Positions 22,819 to 40,892 of a DNA stretch of 64,000 bases are shown here, in pieces. The stretch covers positions 104 to 64,103 of the forward strand of contig VMSU01000028.1 in NCBI GenBank assembly GCA_013792005.1. Direction: 5' to 3'. A model generated the notes under the pieces. That model saw only the letters and a list, made by a program, of their open reading frames with translations. It was not told the origin of the DNA and searched no databases. The first letter of the stretch is position 1. Each line of letters starts with the position of its first letter. This stretch comes from Desulfobulbaceae bacterium (GTDB lineage: Bacteria > Desulfobacterota > Desulfobulbia > Desulfobulbales > VMSU01). The translations under genes and the position numbers were made by a program.

Positions 22819-24561
22819 TTAGAGTTCTTTTCCCATTCCCATCTGAATGTAGCCGCATGGGCAGGCCTGAGAACAAATATGACACCCGACACATTGGTTG
22901 TAGTTGGTATACATCACTTCACCCGTTGGATTTTGCGGGAATGCTAAGATTGCCGATTGAGGACAGAATATCAAACATTGTCGGCACTCAAAACAGAGTC
23001 CGCAACTCATGCATCGTATGGATTCAGCCTGAAACTGTTCTTCGGTTATACCTAATTCTGCCTCCGACTCAAGCCCACTTGAACACCGCTGACCAACTGG
23101 TAACCAGTTACATTCGTTGCGTTTGAGTTCGGGATAATATTCCAAGCGCAGTGTATCAGGGGTTGCGATTTGTCTATCCGCGAAAAATCGGAACCCCTTA
23201 CCTTTGAATTTGGCATCAATCCGCTCAGCAGCCATTCTGCCATGGCCAATGGCTGTGGTCACCAGTTCCAGGCTGATGACGTCACCACCAGCGTACACCC
23301 CTGCGCCGACAGACCAGTCTTCATCAGGCATAAGCCAACCATTCTTGACAGGATCAAGCTGAATGCCACTCCAATCTGGACGTTGGCTGATGGCGTAGAT
23401 GACAGCTGTGCATGGCACTTCGAACTCAGACTTTGCCACTGGAATGACCATCCGCCGTCCACTGTTATCCAGTTCATCAAGCTTCATCCTTTGACACTTG
23501 ACGGCAACACCTTTGCCGTTCTCAGATCGAATTCCGAGAGGAGCGACCAGATACCGGATATCAATTTCTTCTATCAACGCAGCATCGATTTCCTTGTCAA
23601 GGGTGGGCATTTCAGCACGTGTTCTCCGGTACAGTAATGTCACTTGAGCTTCTAGTCGTCGTGCAACACGTGCGGCAGTAATGGCGGTATTCCCACCGCC
23701 AATGATCACTACTCTGTCGCCTATATCAATGGTCTTGCCAGAGTTGACCTGATTCAAGAACGCTACCCCGCTCAAGACATTGGGGGCGTTGTCCCAATTG
23801 CCTTCCAGCTCAACCCCCTTATGGGCTCCGATGCCGACAAAAATAGCGTCGTAATTTGCCCTAAGCCTTTCCCACTCAATATCTTTGCCAATGGTGGTGT
23901 TACAGACAATCTCAACACCCATTCTGGTAATGGCGTCAATTTCTGCGTCCAAAATGGCAGGCGGCAGTCGAAAGGCGGGGATTCCATAGCGAAGCATGCC
24001 GCCAGGCTGGGCAAAGGCTTCAAACACCGTTACCGGATAACCGCGTCGGGCCAGCTGAAAGGCGCAACTAAGTCCAGCCGGCCCGGCCCCGATTACCGCT
24101 ATCTTTTTATCCATGACCTCAGGACTTAGTTTTTTATGCTGCAAGCCATGGTTAATGCCGAAGTCGCCAAGCCACCGCTCAAAGGCGGCGATATTGACTG
24201 CGCCATCGTTTTTTTGGGTGCGATTGCATTGGCTTTCACAAGGATATGGACAAACCCGGCCGCAGGAAGCCGGAAATGGCGTGGTTTTACTGGCCTCGTG
24301 CCATGCTAATTCATATGATTCCCGCCAACTGCGATTTTTGAGCTGTGATTGTTGGACAATGGTCAGCCAGGATCGAATGTCATTGCCAGCAGGACAGCTA
24401 GCAGTACAGGGTGGAATTTTCCGCACATAGATTGGGCATTTGTGGCTATGGTCGCCAAAGGCAACAACTTTTTCTGTCCCGTGTTCTTCTGCAAATTCGG
24501 GATAGTGCCAATTGAGGGCGGAATCAAGAATAGGGTTGGAGTCAATAGGTTTGTTTGCCAT
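22819..24561 (-). CDS. GltD/NfnB-like NAD(P)H:acceptor oxidoreductase with C-terminal 2x[4Fe-4S] ferredoxin domain (DsrL-like)
   Basis: N-terminal Cys clusters 'CTASCPAGNDI' and 'SCGRVCPYPCESQC'. FAD and NAD Rossmann motifs 'IAVIGAGPAGLSCA' and 'VVIIGGGNTAITAA'. C-terminal 'CMSCGLCFECRQCLIFCP' and 'CVGCHICSQACPCG'. Starts 14 nt after the dsrB-like stop. Confidence 0.65.
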   Translation of the reverse strand: MANKPIDSNPILDSALNWHYPEFAEEHGTEKVVAFGDHSHKCPIYVRKIPPCTASCPAGNDIRSWLTIVQQSQLKNRSWRESYELAWHEASKTTPFPASCGRVCPYPCESQCNRTQKNDGAVNIAAFERWLGDFGINHGLQHKKLSPEVMDKKIAVIGAGPAGLSCAFQLARRGYPVTVFEAFAQPGGMLRYGIPAFRLPPAILDAEIDAITRMGVEIVCNTTIGKDIEWERLRANYDAIFVGIGAHKGVELEGNWDNAPNVLSGVAFLNQVNSGKTIDIGDRVVIIGGGNTAITAARVARRLEAQVTLLYRRTRAEMPTLDKEIDAALIEEIDIRYLVAPLGIRSENGKGVAVKCQRMKLDELDNSGRRMVIPVAKSEFEVPCTAVIYAISQRPDWSGIQLDPVKNGWLMPDEDWSVGAGVYAGGDVISLELVTTAIGHGRMAAERIDAKFKGKGFRFFADRQIATPDTLRLEYYPELKRNECNWLPVGQRCSSGLESEAELGITEEQFQAESIRCMSCGLCFECRQCLIFCPQSAILAFPQNPTGEVMYTNYNQCVGCHICSQACPCGYIQMGMGKEL

Positions 24562-24575
24562 CGGTGTGTCCGTCC

Positions 24576-25652
24576 TTAAAACCTGACGTGCGCTGATTGG
24601 TTAAAGGTGGTTCTGGCGTGTCGGTACGAATCAATCATGTCTTTTTCAAAGATCAGGCCAGTGGTGGCAAAGAAGTGCTTCCAGCCTACCCGGTCGATCC
24701 ATTCTCCCAATCGCTCCCAAGGCCTCCCTTCCTGTTTATAGACCTCAATGATTTTACTGACCACGGCATTGACCTCTGGCCAGCGAGGTGGATTGTTGGG
24801 AAGATTCTGAGCGACCAGGCAGCCCACGGCCGGCTTCGATCGGGCATTAGAGTTCTTGCCACCAACCCAGACCCCGAATTTTGAATGCTCGGGATGGTTG
24901 ATCTCCATGACCGGGCAGGCACCGAAACAAGCCCCGCAGTACATGCATTTTTTATGGTCAACCCTCAGCGATGGCTTGCCATTGACTACCGTTGGTCGAA
25001 TTGCGGCCACTGGGCAGCGGGCAACCACCTTGGGCAATTCACAGATGTTCGCCATCACCTCATGGTTAATGCGAGGGGGACGGGTATGTTTGACCACAAT
25101 GGCAATATCTGCCTGACCGCCACAGTTGATGGCACAGCAGGAGGTAGAAATTCTCACCTTGCTTGGCAGTTGACAGTTTGTGAACTCTTCATACAGGTTA
25201 TCCATGATGGATTTGACCACACCAGAGGCATCTGTGGCAGGGATGTCGCAGTGAAGCCAGCCTTGGGTATGGGACACATTAGAGACACAGGGGCCGATTC
25301 CTCCCACCGGCAAACCGATCGACTCCAAGGATTTGATTAGCAACTCCACCTTTTCCTCGTCCGCAGTCATCAGTTCCACATTGTTGCGCACAGTAAAACG
25401 TAGGTAGCCATCGGCGTAGGTGTCGGCGATATCACAAATTCGTCGAATCAAATCCACCGAATCCTGGCGGGGTGTGCCAGCCCTTACCGTAAACAGGACA
25501 TCTCCATTTTCGGCAACATGTTTAAGCACACCTGGTCGGAGCAGTTGATGATATTTCCATTTACCGTAATTTTTTATGACTACCGGATGGAGTGCACCCT
25601 GGTAGTCATAAGGTCCTGATTCAACCGTTTTCCAGGTTCGTTCGCTACTCAT
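24576..25652 (-). CDS. dsrB: Dissimilatory-type sulfite reductase beta subunit (divergent DsrB family)
   Basis: 'VIKNYGKWKYHQLLRPGVLKHV' DsrB N-terminus. Ferredoxin insert 'CPVAAIR..CMYCGACFGACP'. 'STSCCAINCGG'. ATG at 25652 with a GGAG RBS, 22 nt after the dsrA stop. Confidence 0.75.
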   Translation of the reverse strand: MSSERTWKTVESGPYDYQGALHPVVIKNYGKWKYHQLLRPGVLKHVAENGDVLFTVRAGTPRQDSVDLIRRICDIADTYADGYLRFTVRNNVELMTADEEKVELLIKSLESIGLPVGGIGPCVSNVSHTQGWLHCDIPATDASGVVKSIMDNLYEEFTNCQLPSKVRISTSCCAINCGGQADIAIVVKHTRPPRINHEVMANICELPKVVARCPVAAIRPTVVNGKPSLRVDHKKCMYCGACFGACPVMEINHPEHSKFGVWVGGKNSNARSKPAVGCLVAQNLPNNPPRWPEVNAVVSKIIEVYKQEGRPWERLGEWIDRVGWKHFFATTGLIFEKDMIDSYRHARTTFNQSAHVRF

Positions 25653-25674
25653 GGTGTGCTCCATTTCGCAAAAA

Positions 25675-26913
25675 TTAGTACGCGGATTTATAATATGGGT
25701 TGCTCCGAGGACTCGATACCATATCGATGGACGCCTCCAGGCCAACTCCATCCAGGAACTGTTTTAAACTGACTCGTTCAATAGTCTCGCCAATTCTCTC
25801 GTGGTCGAAGCCGTTATCATTCCACCACTCAATAATGGTTTCGCATAAGCAGATAAACGTCGCGATATCCTCATCGCTTTCCATTTTGAAGAAGGGAACG
25901 ATCATGGTTCCGCCCATGGCGCCAACCTTCAAGGTATTTTTTCCGCCAAGCAGGATGGCCAGACCTCTTTCCCTGCCTGGTGACAAGGCCTCCGTCATTA
26001 CGTTGATGCAGTGCATGCAGCGGACGCAGTTTGCATTGTCGATGGCCATTGTTCCATCGGCCAGGGAAAGGGCGCGTGTTGGACAACGACTGATCACGTT
26101 GTTTACCAGGAACTCGAGACCATTCTTTTGAATCCAAGCCTGCATGGCTTCCGTATCTACGAGGATGGCATCCCGCCACATCCCGATTACAGCCAGATCG
26201 GAGCGAAAGATTGAATTGCTGCAGTCATTGGGGCAGCCAGAAAATTTAAACTTGAACTTATAGTTATACTGGGGACGGTGGATATCCCCGGCAAAGTGTT
26301 TCATGACCTTGTAGTGCAGTAGCAAGGTGTCATAACAGGCATGTTCGCAGCGGGCAGGTCCCACACAGGAAATGCTTGTTCGCATGGCGGGACCTGCTCC
26401 CCCCAGATCCCAACCCGCTTGATTGATCTCATCAAAGCACTCTTGCACCTTGGCTTCCTCAATGCCCTGCAGCATGATATCACCTGTCTGGCCATGCAGG
26501 GCAATCAAGCCGGAACCATGTTTTTCCCAAGTGTCGCAAAGATCGCGTAACATCGTGGTGTTGTAGTGTAAGCCCGGTGCGGGCTGAACCCGGAGTGTAT
26601 GAAATTCATGGGCCTCCGGGAATTTGTCCGCAATCTTGGAGCGACGGCTGATTACTCCGCTCCCGTAGCCATATACCGTGACCAGACCGCCTTCCCAATA
26701 ACCGGTCTTAGTCAGGTAGGAATACTCCAATTGATCGAGAACTCCCCTGAGCATGGGTTTTTTGGTTCGTTCCGCCAATTCTTTAAGCCCACTGACAAAG
26801 CTGGGCCATGGGCCTTCTTCCAATGCATCCAGCAGGGGAGTTGGATGTAGGAAATTCCCTTCTATAACAGATGATTCGATGGGAAAGTCAGTATCTTTTT
26901 TTTCCTGATCCAT
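25675..26913 (-). CDS. dsrA: Dissimilatory-type sulfite reductase alpha subunit (divergent DsrA family)
   Basis: 'TPLLDALEEGPWPSFVSGLKE', 'VYGYGSGVISR', sirohaem/[4Fe-4S] motifs 'CVGPARCEHAC' and 'KFKFSGCPNDC', ferredoxin insert 'CPTRAL..CVRCMHCINVM'. Confidence 0.8.
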   Translation of the reverse strand: MDQEKKDTDFPIESSVIEGNFLHPTPLLDALEEGPWPSFVSGLKELAERTKKPMLRGVLDQLEYSYLTKTGYWEGGLVTVYGYGSGVISRRSKIADKFPEAHEFHTLRVQPAPGLHYNTTMLRDLCDTWEKHGSGLIALHGQTGDIMLQGIEEAKVQECFDEINQAGWDLGGAGPAMRTSISCVGPARCEHACYDTLLLHYKVMKHFAGDIHRPQYNYKFKFKFSGCPNDCSNSIFRSDLAVIGMWRDAILVDTEAMQAWIQKNGLEFLVNNVISRCPTRALSLADGTMAIDNANCVRCMHCINVMTEALSPGRERGLAILLGGKNTLKVGAMGGTMIVPFFKMESDEDIATFICLCETIIEWWNDNGFDHERIGETIERVSLKQFLDGVGLEASIDMVSSPRSNPYYKSAY

Positions 26914-26937
26914 GGCGTGACTCCTGTGTTGTTTCGA

Positions 26938-28575
26938 TCAAGGATGCGAATTAGCGCCATCCTGCTGAAGTTTTAGCATCATCAGCAATTTATGGGCAGC
27001 GTCTCTGATCTCAATGAGATCGCTTTTGGCCGGCGCGTTTCCATACCAGTGGGCATAATCCGGATTACTGTGACCAACCCCAAGGATCATGAGTTCAAGG
27101 CATTTCTCTAAATCAGACAGGTATTGGAGTAATCGTTTCATGAGCACTTCTGCCACTTGTTGGTTATGCCCAAAGTCTGCCAGTAGACGTAAAGAGCCGC
27201 TCGTATCCTGTTGAACAATCTTAGCGTTAATCAACTCTCCGACTACGCTGTCTGCATCCTTCTTCAAACTTTGGGCATGCTGCTTTATTGTCGACAGATC
27301 TTTAATGAATTGTGAGGTTTGAACCGTTGTGTGGCATGCGCCGCAGAGTTTTTCCCAATCAGCATTTGCCTTGTCGCCGGTCGGATGACAGGTGGCGCAG
27401 GCCGGTTTTTGCCGTTGATCGGGTAATACCCCGTGAAACGAGGATTCGTAGGTCACTTGATAGATAGGGCCGGGAACAGGGATAACTGAGGGAAGGGAGA
27501 TAAGCGAGAGCACGGCATTTTGGGCTGCCAACTCCTCAAGCATCTGGGCTTCGGCCTGTAACTCCTCCAGATGTTTTTGCAAGGGGATCAAGCCTTGGTA
27601 GGCAGCCATTTTAAAATCTTGATGATAGGCGCCTTGGCTCAGATGAATTTGCAAATACTTTTGCATTTCAAAGTAAATTTTCTCTGCTCGGGAGGTATCT
27701 TCATACAATTGGTGAGCGCCAAGAACAAGGGCCTTGCCATCTACCGGGTTAGGTTGCCGATCCTTGGGTGCGGGATAGAGCAGGTTGTTTTTGTTCAATT
27801 GCTCAATGATTATTCGACCGGATGCCAGCAATTGTTTTCCCTTTTGATCCAGCATGACAGCGCCATCCACCCATTTACGAGTGAACGGTTGGTCATGGCA
27901 CTTAACGCATTCCTTGTCAATATACTCACTGCTCAGCCGATCTAGATTCTTATTGGCGTTATGGGTGCCTGGCAGATGGCAACTGGCACAGGTAGAGGGT
28001 GTAAAGTGGTGCCCCGATTTTTGATATGCCTCCATCTGTGGATGATCAGGTCCCATGTGGCAGGTGTAGCAGGACTGTGGTCGTGCGGCCTCAGCCTTGG
28101 AGAAAGTATGTCTTGCATGGCAGAAATCACAGCGTCCGTCATTCTCTCCATAGCCTATTCGGTGGCAGGATTCGCAACCTTGTCTTTTAACCACGTCAGG
28201 CTGTTTTTGATAGCGGGCGTTCGCCTGCATGTTCTCCCATGATTTGCTATGATCGCTGGTCAGGAATTCCTCTGTTTCCTTTTGATGGCATTTCTGGCAG
28301 GCCGAACGGGCGGTCACCACGGACATCTTTTGGTGGTCAGCGCCATGGCAGTCGGTACAACCAACATCATTCTTACCATGAGCGCCTGACATATGTTCCT
28401 GATAAATCCTGGTGGTGGTCTTCTGATGACATTCCTCACAACTCATCTTTGAACTGATAATTTCTTCTATGGCCATCACCGGTTTTTCCTGAGCCAAACA
28501 GGAACCCTGGAGTGATAGAGTCAACCACCCCAACGCGGCTATAACGTGGCAAGCGATTTTTACCGTATAATTCAT
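26938..28575 (-). CDS. Periplasmic decahaem c-type cytochrome, hydroxylamine oxidoreductase (HAO) family-like
   Basis: Signal peptide. Ten CxxCH motifs counted by hand (CEECH, CTDCH, CQKCH, CESCH, CDFCH, CYTCH, CASCH, CVKCH, CATCH, CGACH). HAO-type signature 'CDFCHARHTFSKAEAARPQSCYTCHMGPDHPQMEAYQKSGH'. Confidence 0.7.
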   Translation of the reverse strand: MNYTVKIACHVIAALGWLTLSLQGSCLAQEKPVMAIEEIISSKMSCEECHQKTTTRIYQEHMSGAHGKNDVGCTDCHGADHQKMSVVTARSACQKCHQKETEEFLTSDHSKSWENMQANARYQKQPDVVKRQGCESCHRIGYGENDGRCDFCHARHTFSKAEAARPQSCYTCHMGPDHPQMEAYQKSGHHFTPSTCASCHLPGTHNANKNLDRLSSEYIDKECVKCHDQPFTRKWVDGAVMLDQKGKQLLASGRIIIEQLNKNNLLYPAPKDRQPNPVDGKALVLGAHQLYEDTSRAEKIYFEMQKYLQIHLSQGAYHQDFKMAAYQGLIPLQKHLEELQAEAQMLEELAAQNAVLSLISLPSVIPVPGPIYQVTYESSFHGVLPDQRQKPACATCHPTGDKANADWEKLCGACHTTVQTSQFIKDLSTIKQHAQSLKKDADSVVGELINAKIVQQDTSGSLRLLADFGHNQQVAEVLMKRLLQYLSDLEKCLELMILGVGHSNPDYAHWYGNAPAKSDLIEIRDAAHKLLMMLKLQQDGANSHP

Positions 28576-28610
28576 TTGCGGAGCCTCTTTGACAAGTTAG
28601 GAAAAATTAA

Positions 28611-29825
28611 CTACCGGACTCCGCTGCCTCCATATTCCTTACAACTTAAAGCGAATTCCTTACCGAAACGAATGCTATTGGTAACCGCCTCATCACTGGG
28701 GTTCCACTTCTCTCGAATGCCATCATTTACCAGTTGGAAGCCACTTGCTGTGAGTTTTTCGGATATGATCTTCACAGCCTCTCCACTCCATCCATAGCAT
28801 CCAAAGGCAGCTGCCTTTTTATTCTTGAATTTCAGCCCCTTGATTTCTTCGAGAAGGGCGGCGACAGAGGAGAGAATGCCATTATTGATGGTAGGAGAGC
28901 CGATCAGAATCCCTTTTGATTTGAAAATTTCTGTGATTAGATCATTCTTGTCTGAACGCGCTATGTTGAACAATTTTACGGCAACTGTAGGATCTGCGGT
29001 GGTGATTCCTTGGGTGATGGCCTCGGCCATCCGTCGTGTCCCGTCCCACATGCTATCATAGGCTACGGTAATTTGATCTTCGGCATAGTTGTTTGCCCAT
29101 TCCACGTATTTGGTGACAATCTGCAACGGCTCTTTTCGCCACATAACCCCATGACTTGGACAGATCATCTCCACCGGCACATTCAAGGCAAGAACCTCCT
29201 TAATTTTTTTGTCGACCAGGGCGCTGAATGGGGTCAAAATGTTGGCATAATACTTTATCGCCTCCTGAAACAATTCCCCCTGATCGACAAGATCGTTGTA
29301 CATCAACTCGGAAGCGATATGCTGGCCAAAGGCATCATTACTGAACAGAATGTTATCTTCAGTAAGATAGGACATCATGCTATCCGGCCAGTGCAACATC
29401 TTTGCTTCAATAAAGATTAGTTGTTTTGATCCCAAGTTGAGTGAATCGCCAGTCTTGATAATCTGAAAATTCCAATCCTGATGATAATGACCTTTGATGA
29501 TGTTTACCCCGTTTGCCGTGCAGTAGATCGGGGTGTCGGGGATATGACGCATTAATTCCGGCAGGGCGCCGCTATGGTCAGACTCGGCATGATTAATAAC
29601 AATGAAATCAATCGCTCCAAGGGGGATCTCTTTTTGCAGTTTGGTGACGAACTCAGCAGAAAATTTCCCCCACACCGTATCTATCAACGCTGTCTTTTCA
29701 TCCCTGACCAGATAGGAATTATAACTTGAACCGCGATGCGTCGAATATTCTTCACCATGAAATTTTCGTAATTCCCAGTCAACCTTCCCGATCCAGGAAA
29801 TGTTTTTATTTATAGTAAAGCCCAT
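28611..29825 (-). CDS. fprA: FprA-family flavodiiron protein (A-type flavoprotein; O2/NO reductase)
   Basis: Metallo-beta-lactamase-like diiron motif 'INHAESDHSG', C-terminal flavodoxin 'LIGSPTINNGIL', AAGGAG RBS. Confidence 0.9.
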   Translation of the reverse strand: MGFTINKNISWIGKVDWELRKFHGEEYSTHRGSSYNSYLVRDEKTALIDTVWGKFSAEFVTKLQKEIPLGAIDFIVINHAESDHSGALPELMRHIPDTPIYCTANGVNIIKGHYHQDWNFQIIKTGDSLNLGSKQLIFIEAKMLHWPDSMMSYLTEDNILFSNDAFGQHIASELMYNDLVDQGELFQEAIKYYANILTPFSALVDKKIKEVLALNVPVEMICPSHGVMWRKEPLQIVTKYVEWANNYAEDQITVAYDSMWDGTRRMAEAITQGITTADPTVAVKLFNIARSDKNDLITEIFKSKGILIGSPTINNGILSSVAALLEEIKGLKFKNKKAAAFGCYGWSGEAVKIISEKLTASGFQLVNDGIREKWNPSDEAVTNSIRFGKEFALSCKEYGGSGVR

Positions 29826-29874
29826 GGCAATCTCCTTGTGGTGATTATGTTGTGTTTATTAGTAATTTCACAGA

Positions 29875-30273
29875 TCAATCTGAGTCGGTGTCGAGTACAT
29901 GACGAACCATCTTAGCCATCCCGTGACTTTTTGCGAGACCATCAATACTCTCACTGGAATAGCCTGAAATGAAAATTATTTTGATCCGCTGTGAACGATC
30001 CTTGACGAGTTCAGCGAGCATAGTTCCTCGTCGTGCCGGCATAACCACATCCGTATTGTGTTATGGACAGCACAAGGTATCGATGGAGTTTGGTGTTCCA
30101 TCCACATTGGTATGATGCCAGAGTGTGTGGCTTTCCTGTCCGAGGAGTTCATCCATGGAATAACCGAGCATCCGTTGGGCTGCTGGATTGGCAAAACTGT
30201 GGCATCCTTTCTTGTCTATACCTAATAAGAGATCTGTGCTTGTCCTGACTTTTCGTAAACGTTCACCGGGCAC
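29875..30273 (-). pseudogene. Decayed hybrid sensor kinase remnant (PAS fragment fused in frame to the C-terminal half of a receiver domain)
   Basis: One minus-strand frame reads 'DLLLGIDKKGCHSFANPAAQRMLGYSMDELLGQESHTLWHHTNVDGTPNSIDTLCCP'. A TAA follows at 30061-30063. Then comes 'DVVMPARRGTMLAELVKDRSQRIKIIFISGYSSESI', which runs straight into a MITE end. No HisKA/HATPase lies between them. Confidence 0.6.
29911..29945 (+). repeat. MITE-like repeat family, copy E (solo terminal fragment)
   Basis: 'cttagccatcccgtgactttttgcgagaccatcaa' matches the right ends of copies A and B and the left end of D. The preceding sequence is unrelated to the family. Confidence 0.65.
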
Positions 30274-30444
30274 CCATCTGCTTTGTCAGCAGCCTGCTTA
30301 TGTGCAACAAGCACACTTCGCAGACCGCTTTATTGACCGACGAAGCGGGTCAATATAAATCGCGCATCCGGGGCACCCGGTAAACGTTTACAGTCCGTTG
30401 AAATCCGCACGTTCAACGCTTCTGGTGAACGATTACGACTTTTC
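30247..30444. repeat. Divergent MITE-like element, copy F
   Basis: Inverted ends 'gacttttcgtaaacgttcacc'(30247-30267) and 'ggtgaacgattacgacttttc'(30424-30444). The 53-nt core 30274-30326 is about 80% identical by hand count to 41143-41196 and includes the palindrome TGTGCAACAAGCACA (30301-30315). Size is similar to the canonical copies. Confidence 0.4.
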
Positions 30445-32026
30445 AACAAAGTACGGAGAGAGTGACCTGAAAAATCACTCCACCCAGGGGGAGATTGGTT
30501 GCCGTAACTCCACCGCCATGCTGCTCGGCTAACTCCCTGACAATGGCAAGCCCCAGCCCGGAGCCCTCGGTTTGCCGAGTCCCGGATGGTCGATGAAAGG
30601 GGTCGAAGATCCTTTCGCCGTCCTCGCAGCGTAACCCAATCCCGTTATCGGCTACCGTAAGGAGATGCCGGTCGCCATCGCTATTGTATCCGAAAGAAAT
30701 TTCGCTTAACCTATCGCCACCATATTTCAAAGAGTTGTCGACCAGATTACGCAAAATACGCAGCAGGGCCAGGCGGTCAGCCATGAGCGTTGGACAATAT
30801 TCCGGCTCGATCCAGGAGATGGCGCGTTCCTTAAGTTGGCAGTCAAACTCGGTCCGGAGGTCTCGAAGAATACTCTTAAGATTCACCGCCTCGACAAGAA
30901 GAGAGGCATTGCCGGCGGAGATATAGTCGTTGATCTTTCCCGTCAGTTCGGCAAGCTGATGTGCTGCCCTGACAATCTGTTCGCAGCAAGCCTTACCCCG
31001 GTTGTCAAGGAGGTGGCGGTATCGTTTGTCAAGAAGTCGGCATAGCCCTTCAATGGCAATCGCCGGACTTTTGAGGTCATGGGAAATCGAATAGGCAAAG
31101 AGCTTAATCTTTTCCGAACTTCTGGACAGGGCATCCTCTGCCCTTTGGCGTTCAAGGATTTCCGTCTGGAGTTCGTAGTTCATCCCGCGAAGATCTCTGG
31201 TTCGTTCTTTGACCATCTCCTCCAGGTGATTCCGGTATTGGGTCAATGCCTGCTCATTCCGTTTTCGTTCAGTACAGTCCTCGACCATCTCGATTGCCGC
31301 AATTACTTCTCCTGCCTCGCCATGAATCGGTGAGGATATGATTCGATAGTTCCGGATCACTTCCCCATCGGGGGTTTCGGTTACCGCTTCGTGAACCAGC
31401 CCGTCGCGTAACGTTTTAGAGGTTGGGCAATAGCTACAGATTCCTTGACGAGGCGGATTATTGAATGAGTGGTAGCAGACCGGCTTTAGAGAGATATTGA
31501 TCAAGGGAAACCATTGCCGCATCTGACGATTCAGAGAGAGAATGCGCATCTCCGGACTGATGACGGCGACCCCGATACCGATATTGTCCACCACGCTTTG
31601 ATATTTGTCTTCATTTTCCTTCAGCCGCTTACCAACATTGAGGATCTCGGTGATATTGCGCATCAGCACGATAACTCCAGACTCCCGACATTGCCCATTA
31701 TTGACCGGAATAATGGTGGTCTCCACCGCCAACTCGGCCCCAAACCCATCAACAAAAGAAAGGACTTCTTCTTGTCTTATGGCTTCCACGCAATGGAGAT
31801 ACAATGACGACTGATGTTTTCCAGCAGTACTGGTTAGCTGCTGGGTGAACACCTCAGAACAGTGGTGTCCCAAGACATCTTGATCAGAGACACCAAGCAT
31901 TGCTAGCAGAGAAGGATTTATTTCCCGTAGGATCAAATTATGATCAAGCCATGCCATGCCAACTGGCAAACTGGAGGCAATCCCTGGGATAAGGTCAGGA
32001 TTTGTGCATAGCAGATTGGCGAACAT
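30443..32026 (-). CDS. PAS-domain sensor histidine kinase (cytoplasmic)
   Basis: H-box 'YSISHDLKSPAIAIEG'. ATPase 'VADNGIGL..GSGLGLAIVRELAEQHGG'. PAS region carrying Cys motif 'CSYCPTSK'. Confidence 0.9.
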   Translation of the reverse strand: MFANLLCTNPDLIPGIASSLPVGMAWLDHNLILREINPSLLAMLGVSDQDVLGHHCSEVFTQQLTSTAGKHQSSLYLHCVEAIRQEEVLSFVDGFGAELAVETTIIPVNNGQCRESGVIVLMRNITEILNVGKRLKENEDKYQSVVDNIGIGVAVISPEMRILSLNRQMRQWFPLINISLKPVCYHSFNNPPRQGICSYCPTSKTLRDGLVHEAVTETPDGEVIRNYRIISSPIHGEAGEVIAAIEMVEDCTERKRNEQALTQYRNHLEEMVKERTRDLRGMNYELQTEILERQRAEDALSRSSEKIKLFAYSISHDLKSPAIAIEGLCRLLDKRYRHLLDNRGKACCEQIVRAAHQLAELTGKINDYISAGNASLLVEAVNLKSILRDLRTEFDCQLKERAISWIEPEYCPTLMADRLALLRILRNLVDNSLKYGGDRLSEISFGYNSDGDRHLLTVADNGIGLRCEDGERIFDPFHRPSGTRQTEGSGLGLAIVRELAEQHGGGVTATNLPLGGVIFQVTLSVLC

Positions 32027-32111
32027 CTCTCTCTCCTGTGTTTAAGTCTTCGACACAATCAACCATATCTTTCACTCTTGACTCTCTTCAACGTTGAATA
32101 TGAACGAATCA

Positions 32112-32789
32112 TTACAAATGAACATCCTCCTGAGGCTCGGAGTAAAATTCAGGGTACAATTTCTTGGCACACTCAGGGCAGATACCATGACTGAATTCTG
32201 CCTCGGAATGATCCCTTATGTAAGCTTCAATTTGATTCCAGGCTCCTTTGTCATCCCTTATTTTTTTGCATGAGGCGCAGATCGGTAAAAAACCTTGCAG
32301 TATTCTGATCTGGGCTAACGCCTCCTCCCGTTCACGGACTGCCTGAGCCTTTTTTTCTTCTATGAATTTTCTCTGCAACGATAAAACGGTCGTAACCCAA
32401 ATAGCAAATAGGGCCAGCGCTCGGTTCGTTAACACCTTCCATATCTCACCGCCTGGCGGTGAGAAAAATAATCCAAGAATTGTTAATATGGAACAGAGGA
32501 CTGCTACCATGACAGTGAAGTGGCGCTTTTTGTGCCAAAGAGAGAGCAGAACGACCGAGATATAAGGAACCCCGGCAGCCACCCCTAAAGGAAGGGCCAG
32601 ATCAACACTAAAAAGAACCAACGTCAGTATGGCATAGCCAACGACGAGCAACCGATTCCTCCTTGCCGTCTCTTCCGCAAGTTGCTGTTTTGTCTGCTCA
32701 GATTGGTTGCAAACTCCTATTGCTGTGGGCGTCATTTTGGACCCATACATTTCATCGTATATGTTCAATATTTCCCTCGTGGTTGTCAT
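32112..32789 (-). CDS. Membrane protein with C-terminal Cys4 'CxxCKKIRD...GICPxC' module
   Basis: Four hydrophobic helices, a coiled segment, then 'ICASCKKIRDDKGAWNQIEAYIRDHSEAEFSHGICPECAKKLY'. Start uncertain: TTG 32807, ATG 32789 or ATG 32735. Confidence 0.6.
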   Translation of the reverse strand: MTTTREILNIYDEMYGSKMTPTAIGVCNQSEQTKQQLAEETARRNRLLVVGYAILTLVLFSVDLALPLGVAAGVPYISVVLLSLWHKKRHFTVMVAVLCSILTILGLFFSPPGGEIWKVLTNRALALFAIWVTTVLSLQRKFIEEKKAQAVREREEALAQIRILQGFLPICASCKKIRDDKGAWNQIEAYIRDHSEAEFSHGICPECAKKLYPEFYSEPQEDVHL

Positions 32790-32991
32790 TATTTCAAGAG
32801 ACAGCAAGTCATTTACTGCACGATGTTCGCATCAGGGGCTCAATAATAGGTTTCTGGTTTCGATAGCTGGAGCGCCTGCAAAAAGCGTATGTTATTTTTT
32901 AGAGGCCCCCTGTTGGTAGCGGTCGTTCTCGACTCTTTTCGTTTCGGATCCCTAATCAAAGCAAGGCGCTGCAGAGATCGCCAGGGATTGA

Positions 32992-34074
32992 CTAGGTGTT
33001 GCTGTTGTATATCGCCGCGAACTCATGATGAAGGTCCCGAAAGGCCTCATGGATCCTTGGGTCGAAGTGATCGGGCATGGTGCGACCGTCACCCTTGATG
33101 AGTATTTTGCAAGTCGTCTCGTGATCAAAGGCCGGTTTGTATGGTCGGGAGCTACGTAAGGCGTCGTATTGGTCGGCAATGTTCATCAGTCGGGCGGCCT
33201 GGGGAATCTCCTCGCCCCGCAGGCCATGCGGATAGCCATGACCGTCCCAGCGTTCATGGTGGCTCAGGGCGATCTGTTCACCCATTATGATGTACTGTGA
33301 TGTCGAGCCGGTTAGGATGCTCCCGCCAATGAGCGTATGGTTCTTCATCAGAGCGAACTCCTCGTTGTTGAGCTTGCCGCGTTTAAGCAGGATATCGGAA
33401 GGGATGCCGATCTTGCCGATGTCATGCATGGGGGCGGCATAGGAGATAACTTCCACCTCCTCTGCAGACCAGCCTAGTGCCGTAGCCAGAAGGGCGCAGT
33501 AGGTCCCCACCCGCTTGATGTGCGAGGCCGTTTCTTCGTCCTTGAATTCAGCGGCGATGGTGAGCCGTAATACCGTGTCATGATAACTTTCTTTCAGTTG
33601 TTCTCTTGATTCGTGCAATTGGGCAGTGCGGGCCAAGACCTCACTTTCCAGCAACTCGTTGTGTTGTTTTAAAAAATCACCGTAATCCTTAACCTGCAGC
33701 AGATTTTTGGTCCGGAGCATCAACTCGCTCTTGTCAATGGGCTTGGTCAGGAAATCGCTGGCGCCTGACTCCAGACCCTTCAGCCTGGAGTCCCGATCGG
33801 TCAAGGCTGTGACCATGACTACCGGGATCTCGCTGGTGGCCATATCGGCCTTGAGTTCCCGGCAGACAGAGTAGCCATTCATTTCCGGCATCATGATATC
33901 GAGAAAGATCAGGTCCGGGACATATTCTCTTACCATTGCCAGCGCCTCGGCGCCACTGGCAGCGACTGCAAAATCATAGCCGTAATGGCGCAGCATAACA
34001 CCCATCACCTTCCGGTTTTTTTCTTCATCATCAACGATGAGAATTTTATGTGGTGTGCTCCTGCTCCTTTCCAT
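32992..34074 (-). CDS. Response regulator with HD-GYP domain (c-di-GMP phosphodiesterase type)
   Basis: Receiver 'ILIVDDEEKNRKVM..DLIFLDIMMPEMNGY'. 'HDIGKIGIP' and 'HHERWDGHGYPHGL'. Confidence 0.9.
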   Translation of the reverse strand: MERSRSTPHKILIVDDEEKNRKVMGVMLRHYGYDFAVAASGAEALAMVREYVPDLIFLDIMMPEMNGYSVCRELKADMATSEIPVVMVTALTDRDSRLKGLESGASDFLTKPIDKSELMLRTKNLLQVKDYGDFLKQHNELLESEVLARTAQLHESREQLKESYHDTVLRLTIAAEFKDEETASHIKRVGTYCALLATALGWSAEEVEVISYAAPMHDIGKIGIPSDILLKRGKLNNEEFALMKNHTLIGGSILTGSTSQYIIMGEQIALSHHERWDGHGYPHGLRGEEIPQAARLMNIADQYDALRSSRPYKPAFDHETTCKILIKGDGRTMPDHFDPRIHEAFRDLHHEFAAIYNSNT

Positions 34075-34106
34075 TGCCGTCCTCCTTCTGCTCTATTGAG
34101 CGTGTC

Positions 34107-36176: not shown

Positions 36177-36206
36177 CGCGTTCTCCTTGCCAAAGTTACG
36201 ACAGCT

Positions 36207-36575
36207 TCATGCTCCAGTGGGTTCATATAGCTGGATCATCTCGACAAAATAGTTTTTGTTGATCGGTTTTGAGATGTAATTATTAAATCCGGCCTTCATG
36301 AATCGCTCCTTGTCACCTTTCATGGCATACGAGGTGAGAGCGATCACCGGGATCGCCTTTGTCGCATCCTCCTGGCGTAAACGGAGCACGGCGGAGATCC
36401 CGTCCAGCCGGGGCATCTGAATATCCATGAGGATAAGGTCGGGAATTGTCTGCCGGGCTACGGCAATCCCGGCCTCGCCATCCTCGGCGGTCAGGCATTG
36501 ATGCCCCATGGCTTCAACAATCACCCGGAATAGCTTAAGATTATGCGGGTTGTCTTCAACGATGAGAATTTTCAT
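36207..36575 (-). CDS. Single-domain (CheY-like) response regulator
   Basis: '[42 protein letters not shown]'. ATGA overlap with the upstream kinase stop. Confidence 0.9.
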
Positions 36576-39500: not shown

Positions 39501-40327
39501 CTAGCCGCCCCACCTATGCGGTGCAGCATGGAGAGACGCCACATGGATTCATCCTTCTCCTTGAAGAGGACGGACAGGGTGGCGGCCATCTCATTGAAGG
39601 CTATTGCTAGGGAGCTTATCTCGCCCTGCCCCAGCACCGGCAGGTGAACGGCAAAGTCCCTCTGCCTGATCCGCTCTGTCGCCCGCTTTAACTCTTTGAT
39701 TGGCCGGATCAAGTTACGCTGGACATATAAGCTACTGCCTAGCGCTATGAGCAAAAAAAGGAACAGAAGGTAGTACCTGGTGTTGGCAAACTTACGCAAT
39801 TCGGCGTTGTAATGTCTCTCCAGCGAGGTGACCAGGGTGTCGAGATTGTTGATTGTGTCAGCGAAGGCGTCATGGCAGGCGGCGCACGACCTTTGTTGTT
39901 CCGCCAGTGGGGCGGTGATAATTTTCAGGAGCAGGGGGGCCTGGGAAACATCCCAGCGTTCGATGAGTCCGCTGACAAGAGTCCGGGACTGCCGGTCATG
40001 CATGTGTATCGCTTTCAGGTCGAGCGTCTCATCACCATCACGCAGGCCATACAGTACCGCTCGATACCGTTTCATTGCCCTCTCAACCTTGGCTAATTGG
40101 CTTTCGGCCTTGCTCGTATTGTCCGGGAAAATGCCGATCAGCAAGTGCATCTGCAAGGTAATTTGCATCAGCTGCAGGCGTTGGCGCCCAGCCAGGTTCA
40201 CCTTTCTGGACTCGCCCCGCATATGTGTGGTCAGTAAAAAGGTGGAGCCCGCCAGAAGCGCAAAAAAGGCCAGGGCCAGAAAACTCAGAAAAAGGTATTT
40301 GGCGGTCAGCGACTGAGTGAATTTCAT
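36572..40327 (-). CDS. 1251-aa sensor histidine kinase: PilJ/NarX-type periplasmic four-helix sensor with CxxCH, HAMP, GAF, PAS x2, GAF, HisKA, HATPase, degenerate GGDEF-like tail
   Basis: TM1, '[13 protein letters not shown]' P-box-like motif, 'SCAACHD', TM2 '[18 protein letters not shown]', HAMP '[14 protein letters not shown]', H-box '[21 protein letters not shown]', ATPase '[18 protein letters not shown]'. Confidence 0.9.
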
Positions 40328-40337
40328 GGGTTATCCC

Positions 40338-40829
40338 CTACATTTTTATGTCCTGCGTGTTCGCTGTTCCACCTGCCTTTACAGATGCCTCGGCACGTTT
40401 AACAGCCGGAAAGAACATATCCTCTTCTTCCTTGAGATGGGCGGTCATATCAAGGGAAATTCGATCAAAGATGGGGACGATTTCGATCACCTCAAGATGG
40501 TGTGTGCCATGGACCTCCGCAATTTTACGGAGATACGCGGCAATTTGGCCGGTGTTTTCTTTGAGATAGGCATGGTGGACGTTGATGATGTAGTCGATCA
40601 GGAAGGACAGATCCCACGATGCATAGTTTTGGCTTCGTTCAACCGGGGCACTCTTGGCAGCTGCAAGATCTGTGGTTATCGAGGCAAGATCAATCCCTTT
40701 TTCTGAGCAAACTGCTGCAAGAGGGATGTTACCACCACAACAAAAGTCAATGTCATGGGATTTAAACACCTTAGCGGTCCTGAAATCACTGGAGACAATC
40801 TCACCAATAGTTTGCGCTGAGAGGTTCAT
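40338..40829 (-). CDS. Iron-sulfur cluster repair di-iron protein (RIC / YtfE / ScdA family)
   Basis: 'DIDFCCGG' N-terminal ScdA motif. Hemerythrin-like His/Glu motifs 'NVHHAYLKEN', 'HGTHHLEVIE', 'HLKEEEDMFFP'. ATG at 40829. Confidence 0.85.
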   Translation of the reverse strand: MNLSAQTIGEIVSSDFRTAKVFKSHDIDFCCGGNIPLAAVCSEKGIDLASITTDLAAAKSAPVERSQNYASWDLSFLIDYIINVHHAYLKENTGQIAAYLRKIAEVHGTHHLEVIEIVPIFDRISLDMTAHLKEEEDMFFPAVKRAEASVKAGGTANTQDIKM

Positions 40830-40892
40830 TTTAAACGGGTTACCTCTACAACCTGCAGAAAATAACTCCACAATCACCCCATTTTTTCAGGG

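What the first reader, a model, noticed from the sequence alone, without database searches (positions are those of the whole stretch)
22819..29825. Operon joining a divergent DsrAB to a DsrL-like oxidoreductase, an HAO-family decahaem cytochrome and a flavodiiron protein
Seen: five minus-strand genes with gaps of 35, 24, 22 and 14 nt. Order is fprA, signal-peptide decahaem with the HAO-type 'CxxCHxRHxF...CxxCHMGPDH' signature, dsrA-like, dsrB-like, then a GltD-like flavoprotein with an extra C-terminal 2x[4Fe-4S] domain (the DsrL architecture). Established: reductive dsrAB is normally followed by dsrD and works with DsrC and DsrMKJOP. DsrL is known as an NAD(P)H-linked partner of DsrAB in sulfur oxidisers and some disproportionators. 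HAO-family cytochromes act on hydroxylamine, nitrite or NO. Flavodiiron proteins reduce NO or O2. Inference: this looks like a self-contained NAD(P)H-linked sirohaem reductase wired to N-oxide chemistry. It could serve sulfite/nitrite/hydroxylamine detoxification or link S and N metabolism. I do not recall this gene combination being described.
Basis: partly seen in the sequence, partly recalled or inferred. Interest (0 to 1): 0.85.

Follow-up and report, generated by a model that had tools for sequence, protein, structure and literature searches.

The report
Oxidative-type DsrAB inside an NO-stress operon
A Desulfobulbaceae-type bacterium carries a sulfur-oxidiser-type sulfite reductase (rDsrAB with its NADP(H) partner DsrL-2) in one conserved gene string with nitric-oxide defence genes. 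This gives the first concrete clue to when sulfate reducers use this puzzling second enzyme.

Summary
The five minus-strand genes and their 35/24/22/14-nt gaps are real. The "divergent DsrAB" is an oxidative-type (reverse) rDsrAB. It is 66-73% identical to green-sulfur-bacterial, SAR324 and Magnetococcales enzymes and 43-47% to reductive DsrA of solved structures. It sits in a 100%-bootstrap clade with Desulfopila IMCC35008, Desulforhopalus IMCC35007 and Desulfobulbaceae S5133MH15.

The flavoprotein is DsrL-2, with the YRR NADP(H) motif. This rdsrABL-2 cassette, present beside a normal reductive dsrABD in such genomes, is already published (Löffler 2020; Diao 2023).

The context appears to be new. 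The order fprA, HAO-like decahaem, dsrA, dsrB, dsrL recurs in other assemblies, preceded there by rubredoxin and ScdA. N-oxide genes (narGHJI, norCB, hcp, flavodiiron genes, cytochrome c', scdA) lie beside the cassette in 10 of 13 related loci, against 1 of 92 loci of classical sulfur oxidisers.

FprA is NorV-like. The cytochrome has an HAO fold plus two extra haems, and a Tyr at the position of the HAO cross-link.

DsrAB keeps every conserved rDsrAB residue, so sulfur chemistry is probably retained. I favour N-oxide-triggered sulfur oxidation (about 0.4) over NADPH-driven nitrite/hydroxylamine/sulfite detoxification (about 0.3). Direction, co-transcription and a second dsrAB in this genome are untested.

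The parts
28611..29825 (-). fprA: class-A flavodiiron protein, NorV-like core without a rubredoxin domain
   Evidence: NF008887 722 bits, above the cut-off of 635. ODP/Lactamase_B plus Flavodoxin_1 domains. 529 bits to the E. coli NorV core 6etb, 411 to the Moorella NO reductase 1ycf and 290 to D. gigas ROO. The diiron motif HAESDH aligns with that of NorV.
26938..28575 (-). cyt10: periplasmic HAO-family cytochrome with 8 + 2 haems
   Evidence: Ten CxxCH motifs and a signal-like N-terminus. The eight N-terminal motifs and the G-P-D(-H) after haem 6 are invariant in 40 homologues. A profile search against PDB gives E 1e-46 to 1e-62 to HAO-family entries (HAO-like Kustc0458, HOX, HAO, HDH) over profile positions 42-370. 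AF2 model pLDDT 82.8. The Foldseek top 8 hits are all HAO family. Tyr326 aligns with the cross-link Tyr.
25675..26913 (-). rdsrA: oxidative-type dissimilatory sulfite reductase alpha subunit
   Evidence: TIGR02064 496 bits. Homologues and tree. R101, R172, K213 and K215 (D. vulgaris numbering) and the Cys motifs are conserved. No clade-specific change at conserved columns.
24576..25652 (-). rdsrB: oxidative-type dissimilatory sulfite reductase beta subunit
   Evidence: TIGR02066 476 bits. 63-74% identical to Chlorobium, SAR324 and Magnetococcales DsrB. 320-371 bits to reductive DsrB of solved structures, with the CC-x3-C and ferredoxin Cys retained. The only clade-specific change is I322V.
22819..24561 (-). 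dsrL, type 2: NADP(H)-linked iron-sulfur flavoprotein
   Evidence: Fer4_20, Pyr_redox_2 and a C-terminal Fer4 dicluster. NF009410 580 bits. YRR motif at residues 311-313, present in all 9 clade members and in only 4 of 48 other DsrL. NfnB-like modules are the best PDB relatives. Directly downstream of dsrB in all relatives.
29826..29874 (-). Short leader or promoter region upstream of fprA
   Evidence: A sigma-70-like match GTGAAA-16-CATAAT at 29871-29844 (9 of 12; the overall count is not above chance) and an AAGGAG ribosome-binding-like site. Inference only.
29875..30021 (-). Remnant of a response-regulator receiver domain (…IIFISGYSSESIDGLAKSHGMAKMVRHVLDTDSD*)
   Evidence: Its 3' end is homologous to the end of the hybrid kinase gene that precedes fprA in L163 and dsrA in L164.
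40893..41051 (-). Rubredoxin, the likely electron donor of FprA; part of the same ancestral island
   Evidence: NF045768 106 bits, above the cut-off of 90. 82% identical to the rubredoxin that opens the Rd-ScdA-FprA-Cyt10-DsrABL string in L174.
40338..40877 (-). ScdA/RIC iron-sulfur repair di-iron protein, C-terminally short (179 aa against 241 aa)
   Evidence: ScdA_N and Hemerythrin domains. TIGR03652 141 bits, below its cut-off. 57-63% identical to the ScdA genes of L172 and L174.
41456..42088 (-). DUF6448 protein at the upstream edge of the island
   Evidence: PF20046. The same family opens the island in L172.
30443..40327 (-). Block of three PAS/GAF sensor kinases (one with a PilJ-type sensor domain), an RR-HD-GYP and a 231-aa protein, lying between scdA and fprA; candidate regulators
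   Evidence: Pfam. There are only sub-threshold NCBIfam hints to NosR-type RR (168 bits, cut-off 400) and NahK-type kinases. This block is absent from the equivalent place in L172 and L174.

Best explanation
The cluster is a nitrosative-stress / N-oxide island of a Desulfobulbaceae- or Desulfocapsaceae-type bacterium. Its ancestral layout was [DUF6448-norCB]-rubredoxin-scdA-fprA-cyt10-[dsrA-dsrB-dsrL]-ABM-RACo. The island carries the laterally acquired, oxidative-type rDsrAB-DsrL-2 cassette.

Shown: the identities of the genes, their order, conservation of that order in other lineages, and the phylogenetic type of DsrAB and DsrL.

Inferred: the five genes are read from the promoter upstream of fprA. 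In the window only 24 nt separate cyt10 from dsrA. The cassette would therefore be switched on when nitrate, nitrite or NO (possibly also O2) reaches the cell.

Proposed mechanism (all inferred):
- rDsrAB keeps its ancestral chemistry and oxidises DsrC-bound sulfane sulfur to sulfite.
- DsrL-2 passes the electrons to NADP+.
- The host's own AprAB/Sat, DsrC and DsrMKJOP complete sulfide or sulfur oxidation, with N-oxides as electron acceptors. narGHJI lies directly downstream of dsrL in two relatives, and a type III SQR directly upstream of dsrA in another.
- FprA, fed by rubredoxin, reduces cytoplasmic NO to N2O.
- The periplasmic HAO-type decahaem removes hydroxylamine, NO or nitrite. The toxic by-products of that life-style are thus handled by the same transcript.
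For: Oxidative type. The nearest relatives outside the clade are Chlorobi, SAR324, Spirochaetota and Magnetococcales at 66-73% identity. Classical sulfur oxidisers are at 55-58% and reductive DsrA of solved structures at 43-47%. The clade with Desulfopila IMCC35008, Desulforhopalus IMCC35007 and S5133MH15 has 100% bootstrap support.

Unchanged enzyme. There are 0 clade-specific substitutions at columns at least 95% conserved in 225 other oxidative DsrA, and only I322V in DsrB. The substrate Arg/Lys and the cluster Cys are kept.

DsrL-2. The architecture and the YRR motif are present. DsrL mediates electron transfer between rDsrAB and NAD(P) (PMC7596348).

Conserved order. L174 carries Rd-ScdA-FprA-Cyt10-DsrA-DsrB-DsrL-ABM, L173 carries FprA-Cyt10-DsrA and L163 carries FprA-DsrABL-ABM-RACo.

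N-oxide neighbours of the cassette. These are narGHJI (L001, L002), norCB (L164), flavodiiron-like + hcp + HAO-like cytochrome (L003), cytochrome c' (L006) and scdA (L083). That is 10 of 13 clade loci, against 1 of 92 control loci.

Sulfide-oxidation neighbour. A type III SQR (632 bits, above its cut-off) lies directly upstream of dsrA in L005.

Literature. Relatives hold a separate reductive dsrABD, and a switch of direction has been proposed for them.
Against: dsrEFH, which is needed for Dsr-type sulfur oxidation in Allochromatium, is reported absent from the related genomes, and no dsrC or dsrEFH lies in the window. The characterised DsrL-2 (Desulfurella) is NADP(H)-specific, and the authors argue that NADPH is needed as the donor for sulfite reduction. 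The immediate operon partners (Rd, ScdA, FprA) are defence and repair genes rather than respiratory enzymes, which fits a detoxification role at least as well. Co-transcription and induction are untested. The 13 loci are not phylogenetically independent. The control loci are largely filled with long dsr operons. It is unknown whether this genome has a second dsrAB or any nitrate reductase.
Confidence: 0.4

Rival explanations
1. NADPH-driven reductive detoxification. DsrL-2 feeds NADPH electrons into rDsrAB, which then works as a cytoplasmic sirohaem reductase during N-oxide stress. It would either reduce nitrite or hydroxylamine to ammonium, as a NirBD analogue. Or it would remove sulfite when nitrite or NO has blocked the respiratory DsrAB/DsrMKJOP route. 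FprA, cNor, Hcp and Cyt10 take care of NO and NH2OH.
For: The cassette lies in a string of defence and repair genes (Rd, ScdA, FprA, HAO-like) and next to norCB, hcp and cytochrome c'. It sits directly upstream of narGHJI, which releases nitrite in the cytoplasm, in L001 and L002. DsrL-2 has the YRR NADP(H) motif, which the characterised DsrL-2 uses for sulfite reduction. dsrEFH is absent in relatives. From general knowledge, sirohaem sulfite reductases also reduce nitrite and hydroxylamine in vitro.
Against: There is no sign of neofunctionalisation. All conserved rDsrA and rDsrB residues are kept, and identity to bona fide sulfur-oxidiser enzymes is about 72%. No DsrAB is known to act as a physiological nitrite reductase. 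Dedicated NirBD and NrfA are widely available to bacteria. A type III SQR neighbour in L005 points to sulfur oxidation.
Confidence: 0.3
2. Neighbourhood without shared function. The rdsrABL cassette is a mobile three-gene module that landed in a recombination-prone island. It is regulated and used independently of the N-oxide genes.
For: The cassette is present or absent at the same spot. L172 and L166 have cyt10-ABM without dsr, and L163 has fprA-dsrABL without cyt10. A conserved ~80-nt segment upstream of ABM follows either cyt10 or dsrL. Transposases lie near the cassette in L002 and L005. In L174 and L173 the cyt10-dsrA spacer is 142 and 116 nt, which leaves room for an own promoter. L085 and L005 lack N-oxide neighbours.
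Against: Different N-oxide genes (nar, nor, hcp, flavodiiron, c', scdA) flank the cassette in different synteny types, 10 of 13 loci against 1 of 92 controls. The window has only a 24-nt gap between cyt10 and dsrA.
Confidence: 0.13
3. Ordinary respiratory DsrAB with unusual neighbours, being the only copy in the genome.
For: The rest of this genome could not be inspected, so a second copy is not demonstrated here.
Against: Identity to reductive DsrA of solved structures is only 43-47%, and no dsrD follows dsrB. The enzyme is nested in the oxidative clade. The closest named relatives have an additional reductive dsrABD.
Confidence: 0.02

Closest known systems
rdsrABL-2 cassette of Desulforhopalus sp. 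IMCC35007, Desulfopila sp. IMCC35006/35008 and Desulfobulbaceae bacterium S5133MH15 (Löffler et al. 2020, PMC7596348; Diao et al. 2023, PMC10591310)
   Same: It belongs to the same DsrA clade (100% bootstrap, 80-84% identity). It has the same dsrA-dsrB-dsrL order, the same 580-aa DsrL with YRR, and no dsrD, dsrC or dsrEFH attached.
   Different: Here and in L173 and L174 the cassette is fused downstream of fprA and an HAO-type decahaem. Those papers do not mention nitrate reductase, cytochromes or flavodiiron genes beside the cassette (term searches). The second, reductive copy is unverified for this genome.
rDsrAB + DsrL of green sulfur bacteria (Chlorobium phaeobacteroides BS1 and Prosthecochloris marina with DsrL-2; Chlorobaculum tepidum with DsrL-1B)
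   Same: These are the closest enzymes outside the clade: about 72% identity for DsrA and about 74% for DsrB. The order dsrA-dsrB-dsrL is the same (for the DsrL types).
   Different: In Chlorobi the genes are part of a long dsr operon with dsrC, dsrEFH and dsrMKJOP, in obligate sulfur oxidisers. Here there is a bare three-gene cassette in an N-oxide island of a sulfate-reducer lineage.
Kuenenia stuttgartiensis HAO-like Kustc0458 with dihaem Kustc0457 (6h5l), and the oxidising HOX kustc1061 (4n4j)
   Same: The HAO fold and the order of the eight haems are shared, as is the Asp-His after haem 6. Eight plus two haems per unit is reminiscent of the Kustc0458/0457 pair.
   Different: The two extra haems are fused at the C-terminus together with a duplicated helical segment. 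The cross-link position holds Tyr as in HOX and HAO, not Trp as in Kustc0458. Identity is only 21-24%. The host is neither an anammox bacterium nor a nitrifier.
E. coli NorV-NorW, and Desulfovibrio ROO-rubredoxin
   Same: The flavodiiron core is shared (529 bits to NorV). A separate rubredoxin and a NorW-like flavoprotein are encoded in the window.
   Different: There is no fused rubredoxin domain. The NorW-like gene is about 19 kb away. NO versus O2 selectivity is unknown.
NirBD, the NAD(P)H-dependent sirohaem nitrite reductase (functional analogue only)
   Same: Both pair an NAD(P)H flavoprotein with a sirohaem-[4Fe-4S] protein. Both can sit next to narGHJI, as the cassette does in L001 and L002.
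   Different: The proteins are not homologous at family level. NirB models score far below their cut-offs. DsrAB normally works with DsrC.

Membership tests
DsrAB dissimilatory sulfite reductase | Paralogous alpha and beta subunits with NIR_SIR_ferr + NIR_SIR domains and a ferredoxin insert, scoring above the curated dsrA and dsrB models | tested here: met
   TIGR02064 496 bits (cut-off 393) and TIGR02066 476 bits (cut-off 341.5); Pfam domains
DsrAB dissimilatory sulfite reductase | Sirohaem-[4Fe-4S] cysteine motifs and the substrate-binding Arg101/Arg172/Lys213/Lys215 (D. vulgaris DsrA numbering) | tested here: met
   Alignments to 2v4j, 3mm5, 3or1 and 2xsj: FHTLR, AMRTS, YKFKFKF, C-x5-C and CPNDC in DsrA; HC, CCAINC and CMYCGAC in DsrB
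Oxidative-type (reverse) rDsrAB | Phylogenetic placement within the oxidative bacterial clade, apart from reductive bacterial and archaeal types | tested here: met
   NJ tree of 45 DsrA. The window groups with Chlorobi, SAR324, Magnetococcales and proteobacterial sulfur oxidisers. Reductive DsrA of solved structures are 43-47% identical. All 80 genome hits are sulfur oxidisers or the Desulfobulbaceae clade.
Oxidative-type (reverse) rDsrAB | Companion genes of the oxidative pathway (dsrEFH, dsrC, dsrMKJOP) in the same locus | tested here: not met
   None in the 64-kb window. In relatives dsrC and dsrMKJOP lie elsewhere and dsrEFH is absent.
Oxidative-type (reverse) rDsrAB | Operates in the sulfur-oxidising direction in vivo | not testable with these tools
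   Needs physiology or enzymology
DsrL, type 2 | N-terminal two-cluster ferredoxin domain, FAD/NAD(P)H-binding domains and a C-terminal 2x[4Fe-4S] ferredoxin domain, encoded next to dsrAB | tested here: met
   Fer4_20 at residues 48-137, Pyr_redox_2 at 153-441, Fer4_7 at 523-570. 14 nt downstream of dsrB. The architecture criterion is as quoted in PMC13047784.
DsrL, type 2 | YRR motif in the NAD(P)-binding domain, the marker of DsrL-2 and of NADP(H) preference | tested here: met
   YRR at 311-313, in 9 of 9 clade members. DsrL of proteobacterial sulfur oxidisers have S/T-x-x there. The definition is in PMC7596348.
DsrL, type 2 | Placement in the DsrL-2 branch (subcluster 2A/2B) of a DsrL tree | not tested
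   No DsrL reference tree was built. The 63%-identical DsrL of Desulforhopalus IMCC35007 is placed there in the literature.
HAO family of octahaem cytochromes c | Eight CxxCH motifs in HAO order, the HAO fold, and the Asp-His pair after haem 6 | tested here: met
   Invariant motifs and G175-P176-D177(-H178). Profile E 1e-46 to 1e-62 to HAO-family entries (HAO-like Kustc0458, HOX, HAO, HDH). Foldseek probability 1.0, TM 0.45-0.57.
HAO family, oxidising subgroup (P460 cofactor) | Tyr that cross-links to the catalytic haem of the neighbouring subunit | tested here: inconclusive
   Tyr326 lies 8 residues after the conserved His318. This spacing is as in NeHAO (H459 to Y467) and HOX (chain H407 to Y415), and the residues are aligned by the profile search. 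Kustc0458 has Trp at this position. The Tyr is kept in 22 of 26 decahaem homologues. Whether a cross-link forms cannot be seen from sequence.
HAO family | Homotrimeric assembly | not testable with these tools
   Only a monomer was modelled
Flavodiiron proteins (NorV/FprA) | Metallo-beta-lactamase-like diiron domain with the H-x-E-x-D-H motif, plus a flavodoxin domain | tested here: met
   Pfam ODP/Lactamase_B + Flavodoxin_1. NF008887 is above its cut-off. HAESDH aligns to the NorV motif HAEEDH.
Flavorubredoxin (E. coli NorV proper) | C-terminal fused rubredoxin domain | tested here: not met
   The protein ends after the flavodoxin domain. NF003954 scores 629 bits, below its cut-off of 711. A separate rubredoxin is encoded at 40893-41051.

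The most novel reading that the evidence does not exclude
The cassette has been recruited from sulfur to nitrogen-oxide chemistry. DsrL-2 would be the NADPH entry point of a complete N-oxide detoxification operon. It would drive sirohaem-catalysed reduction of nitrite or hydroxylamine by a DsrAB-type enzyme, and perhaps also feed rubredoxin and FprA. The decahaem would be a Tyr-cross-linked, P460-type hydroxylamine oxidase working in a sulfate-reducer lineage. That would make this the first DsrAB with a physiological N-cycle role, and an oxidising HAO outside nitrifiers, methanotrophs and anammox bacteria.
Probability: 0.2. Interest if true: 0.85.

Novelty: new variant of a known kind. Interest (0 to 1): 0.6.

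Why it matters
Several sulfate-reducer lineages carry a second, oxidative-type DsrAB with DsrL-2. Reviews can only speculate that they 'switch direction' (PMC7596348, PMC10591310). The repeated embedding of this cassette in NO and nitrate gene clusters names a concrete trigger: nitrate, nitrite or NO. It also gives a concrete experiment, because isolates of the same clade exist (Desulforhopalus IMCC35007, Desulfopila IMCC35008).

If the cassette is N-oxide-induced, dsrAB-based surveys that read 'Desulfobulbales = sulfate reduction' would miss nitrate-driven sulfide oxidation, or nitrite tolerance, at oxic-anoxic interfaces.

The 8+2-haem HAO relative with a Tyr at the cross-link position is a new architectural variant of a key N-cycle enzyme family.

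Tried and rejected
- A shared operator or palindrome was sought in 14 upstream regions of fprA or dsrA across the clade. None recurred.
- The conserved TGTGT-N7-ACACA element upstream of ABM in relatives was sought in the window, along with its 24-nt context. There were no matches, consistent with the absence of ABM-RACo there.
- A sigma-54-type promoter upstream of fprA was looked for by eye. There was no convincing match.
- Promoter and terminator scans were not above shuffle expectation.
- The search of 50%-identity representatives returned mostly fragments and added no named references.
- Look-ups of P0041 (Desulfopila IMCC35008) and P0040 found no contig on record.
- A DsrC-like ORF (C-x10-C-[VIL] at the C-terminus) was sought in all six frames. 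None was found.
- Clade-specific substitutions in DsrB seemed numerous (15) when only proteobacterial sequences were used. They vanished once Chlorobi- and Magnetococcales-type sequences were added. This was rejected as evidence of neofunctionalisation.
- Base composition gives no sign of recent transfer (GC 0.45-0.52 against about 0.5 in the neighbourhood).

Full report
**Observation**

The five minus-strand ORFs are present exactly as described:
- fprA, 28611-29825
- a cytochrome with ten CxxCH motifs, 26938-28575
- dsrA, 25675-26913
- dsrB, 24576-25652 (the second ATG of the ORF)
- a 580-aa GltD-like protein, 22819-24561

The gaps are 35, 24, 22 and 14 nt, and each start has a purine-rich ribosome-binding-like stretch. 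Curated models confirm the families. FprA scores 722 bits on NF008887 (cut-off 635). DsrA scores 496 bits on TIGR02064 (cut-off 393) and DsrB 476 bits on TIGR02066 (cut-off 341.5). The flavoprotein scores 580 bits on NF009410 (cut-off 516) and has Fer4_20, Pyr_redox_2 and a C-terminal dicluster domain. No terminator-like site lies in the gaps, and promoter and terminator counts do not exceed shuffles.

**What the DsrAB is**

The best homologues of DsrA fall in three tiers:
- Desulfobulbaceae-type MAGs and Desulfopila sp. IMCC35008, at 77-90% identity
- Chlorobium, Prosthecochloris, SAR324, Spirochaetota and Magnetococcales, at 66-73%
- proteobacterial sulfur oxidisers

A scan of one genome per species returned four Desulfobulbaceae or Desulforhopalus loci, including the isolate Desulforhopalus sp. 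IMCC35007. All other hits were sulfur oxidisers such as Magnetococcales, Sulfuricaulis, Thiomargarita, Woeseiaceae and Sulfuritalea. Reductive DsrA of solved structures (D. vulgaris, D. gigas, Desulfomicrobium norvegicum, A. fulgidus) are only 43-47% identical.

In an NJ tree (45 sequences, 389 columns, 200 bootstraps) the window sits in a 100%-supported clade. That clade contains Desulfopila IMCC35008, Desulforhopalus IMCC35007 and Desulfobulbaceae S5133MH15, and it is nested among oxidative-type sequences. DsrB behaves the same way.

The enzyme looks intact. The substrate residues R101, R172, K213 and K215 (D. vulgaris numbering) and the cluster cysteines are present. Across 57 clade members no position differs from residues that are at least 95% conserved in 225 other oxidative DsrA. 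DsrB has only a conservative I322V. The DsrAB is therefore not an unplaced divergent form. It is a standard oxidative-type rDsrAB.

**The flavoprotein**

It has the DsrL architecture and the YRR motif at residues 311-313. Löffler et al. use this motif to define DsrL-2 and to explain NADP(H) specificity. All nine clade DsrL carry it. Most DsrL of proteobacterial sulfur oxidisers carry S/T-x-x instead.

**Already known**

Löffler et al. 2020 (PMC7596348) state that four genomes each have two dsrAB sets: Desulfopila IMCC35006 and IMCC35008, Desulforhopalus IMCC35007 and Desulfobulbaceae S5133MH15. One set is oxidative (rdsrABL-2) and one is reductive (dsrABD). dsrC and dsrMKJOP lie elsewhere, and dsrEFH is absent. 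Diao et al. 2023 (PMC10591310) describe the same for five Desulfocapsaceae MAGs from oxic-anoxic transition zones and suggest a switch of direction.

Neither paper contains the terms nitrate reductase or narG, and the Löffler paper also lacks nitrite, cytochrome and flavodiiron. Further searches found no paper linking this cassette to N-oxide genes.

**The context, which appears to be new**

Loci carrying the cassette:
- L174 carries ferredoxin, rubredoxin, ScdA, FprA (88%), Cyt10 (74%), DsrA (88%), DsrB (91%), DsrL (80%) and ABM, all on one strand.
- L173 carries FprA, Cyt10 and DsrA up to its contig end.
- L163, the closest DsrA relative, carries a hybrid kinase, FprA, DsrABL, ABM and RACo.
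- L164 has norC, norB, a PilJ-type kinase and a second kinase upstream of dsrABL.
- L001 and L002 have narGHJI directly downstream of dsrL.
- L003 has a flavodiiron-like gene, hcp, an HAO-like 430-aa cytochrome and a molybdoenzyme upstream.
- L006 (Desulforhopalus IMCC35007) has cytochrome c' upstream.
- L083 has scdA upstream.
- L005 instead has a type III SQR plus DUF1641 directly upstream.
- L085 has a SoxA/TsdA-like cytochrome, an FMN reductase and a cytochrome-bd-like fusion.

Loci without the cassette at the same spot:
- L172 carries DUF6448, norC, norB, rubredoxin, ScdA, FprA, Cyt10 and ABM.
- L166 carries an FprA fragment, Cyt10, ABM and RACo.

The window itself has DUF6448 (41456-42088), rubredoxin (40893-41051) and a short ScdA (40338-40877). 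A block of sensor kinases and an HD-GYP regulator separates these from fprA.

In total, 10 of 13 clade loci have at least one N-oxide gene within the flanks. Only 1 of 92 loci (at least 12 kb) around oxidative dsrAB of other lineages does. Two caveats apply. The clade loci share ancestry, and the control flanks are largely filled by long dsr operons.

A conserved ~80-nt segment precedes ABM whether cyt10 or dsrL lies upstream. This shows that dsrABL behaves as a cassette, inserted at or lost from one fixed point of the island.

**The partners**

FprA is closest to E. coli NorV (529 bits) and to the Moorella NO reductase (411 bits). It is further from D. gigas ROO (290 bits). It lacks the fused rubredoxin.

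Cyt10 has these features:
- It has the eight HAO haem motifs and the Asp-His pair.
- A family profile matches HAO-family entries (the HAO-like Kustc0458, HOX, HAO and HDH) with E 1e-46 to 1e-62.
- A confident AF2 model (pLDDT 82.8, pTM 0.82) finds only HAO-family structures as significant Foldseek matches.
- Residues about 370-545 add two haems and a duplicated helical segment. This gives 8+2 haems, reminiscent of the Kustc0458/0457 complex.
- Tyr326 lies eight residues after the conserved His318. This spacing is the same as for the cross-link Tyr of NeHAO and HOX, and the profile search aligns the residues. The reducing Kustc0458 has Trp there. The Tyr is kept in 22 of 26 decahaem homologues.

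According to Ferousi et al. 2021, presence or absence of this Tyr encodes the direction of catalysis. Whether it cross-links here is open. Cyt10 homologues elsewhere have no constant NrfH- or NapC-type partner.

**Mechanism**

Orthology predicts the chemistry and neighbourhood predicts the occasion. The unchanged rDsrAB plus DsrL-2 argues for DsrC-linked sulfur/sulfite chemistry coupled to NADP(H). The neighbourhood argues that the cassette is deployed when nitrate, nitrite or NO is around.

I favour oxidative use (confidence 0.4). In this reading sulfane sulfur is oxidised to sulfite and the electrons go to NADP+. The host's Apr/Sat and membrane complexes complete the pathway. Nar and other N-oxide reductases serve as sinks, and FprA, rubredoxin, ScdA and Cyt10 handle NO and hydroxylamine.

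The main rival (0.3) is NADPH-driven reductive detoxification of nitrite, hydroxylamine or sulfite. It fits the defence-gene company, the nar adjacency, the YRR motif and the lack of dsrEFH. It lacks any sign of adaptation in the enzyme.

The other rivals are a purely historical juxtaposition (0.13) and an ordinary respiratory enzyme (0.02).

Co-transcription, induction, direction of catalysis and the presence of a second dsrAB in this particular genome are not shown.

**Verdict**

The core cassette is known. Its operonic fusion with fprA and an 8+2-haem HAO relative appears undescribed in the searchable literature, as does its systematic embedding in N-oxide gene clusters. This makes an open question directly testable in existing isolates.

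Noticed in passing
window 51666-53810 (-) and 54199-56406 (-): A 714-aa protein combines a multihaem cytochrome (MtrC/MtrF-like domain) with two C-terminal rhodanese domains (125 bits to 3-mercaptopyruvate sulfurtransferase, below its cut-off). It lies next to a DUF3373 protein. This may be a periplasmic or outer sulfur-transfer and electron-transfer module.
   Followed up: partly
window 29875-30442: The 617-nt stretch between the kinase gene and fprA holds a remnant of a receiver domain, homologous to the end of the hybrid kinase that precedes fprA or dsrA in L163 and L164. It also holds a 21-nt inverted repeat (30255-30275 / 30371-30391, 86% complementary, 95 nt apart). It looks like a disrupted hybrid kinase or a small inserted element.
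   Followed up: partly
window 40338-40877 (-): ScdA/RIC is only 179 aa, against 241 aa in L172 and L174, and ends 10 nt before the 1251-aa sensor kinase gene. The kinase block therefore seems to have been inserted into the Rd-ScdA-FprA string, truncating scdA.
   Followed up: no
L163 6730-6908, L174 9394-9579, L172 7923-8067, L166 9630-9777: A conserved ~80-nt segment lies upstream of the ABM gene and contains the palindrome TGTGT-N7-ACACA (…ACGCCTGTGTTTGGCGTACACAAT…). It is present whether cyt10 or dsrL lies upstream, so it may be an operator or internal promoter. It is absent from the window.
   Followed up: partly
L163 6909-7658, L166 9778-11637, L172 8068-8358, L174 9580-9657: An ABM-family protein follows the island in these relatives. 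In L163 and L166 it is followed by a RACo/AcsV-like ATP-dependent reductive activase (464 bits, below its cut-off). Such an activase next to haem and sirohaem enzymes might re-reduce damaged cofactors. Both genes are missing downstream of dsrL in the window.
   Followed up: no
L002 9443-9871, L006 7394-7777, L084 806-1180: A small glyoxalase/VOC-family gene sits directly upstream of dsrA in three relatives of the marine branch of the clade.
   Followed up: no
window 26938-28575 (-), residues 280-370 and 470-545 of the protein: Cyt10 has an internal duplication of the HAO C-terminal helical segment ('AYHQDFKMAAYQGL…' and 'GHSNPDYAHWYGNAP…'). The second copy matches the C-terminus of the 430-aa Geobacter/Geothrix-type relatives.
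   Followed up: partly
window 9057-10241 (-) and 13423-14385 (+): A 394-aa flavoprotein resembles the NirB N-terminal part and NorW (a rubredoxin-reductase-like C-terminal domain). A hemerythrin-PAS_10 protein lies nearby. These may be further redox or NO-related genes in the neighbourhood.
   Followed up: no
L005 7673-9642: In Desulforhopalus sp. GLR1684 a type III sulfide:quinone reductase (NF049943 'selenoprotein subtype', 632 bits, above its cut-off) and a DUF1641 protein lie directly upstream of rdsrA. An IS91-type transposase lies nearby.
   Followed up: partly
window 20064-21768 (+): A DsbB, a DsbA-like thioredoxin and a TlpA/AhpC-like redoxin form a cluster next to an ArsR-type regulator (22062-22445), which is convergent with dsrL. 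This suggests periplasmic thiol-disulfide maintenance, possibly for cytochrome maturation.
   Followed up: no
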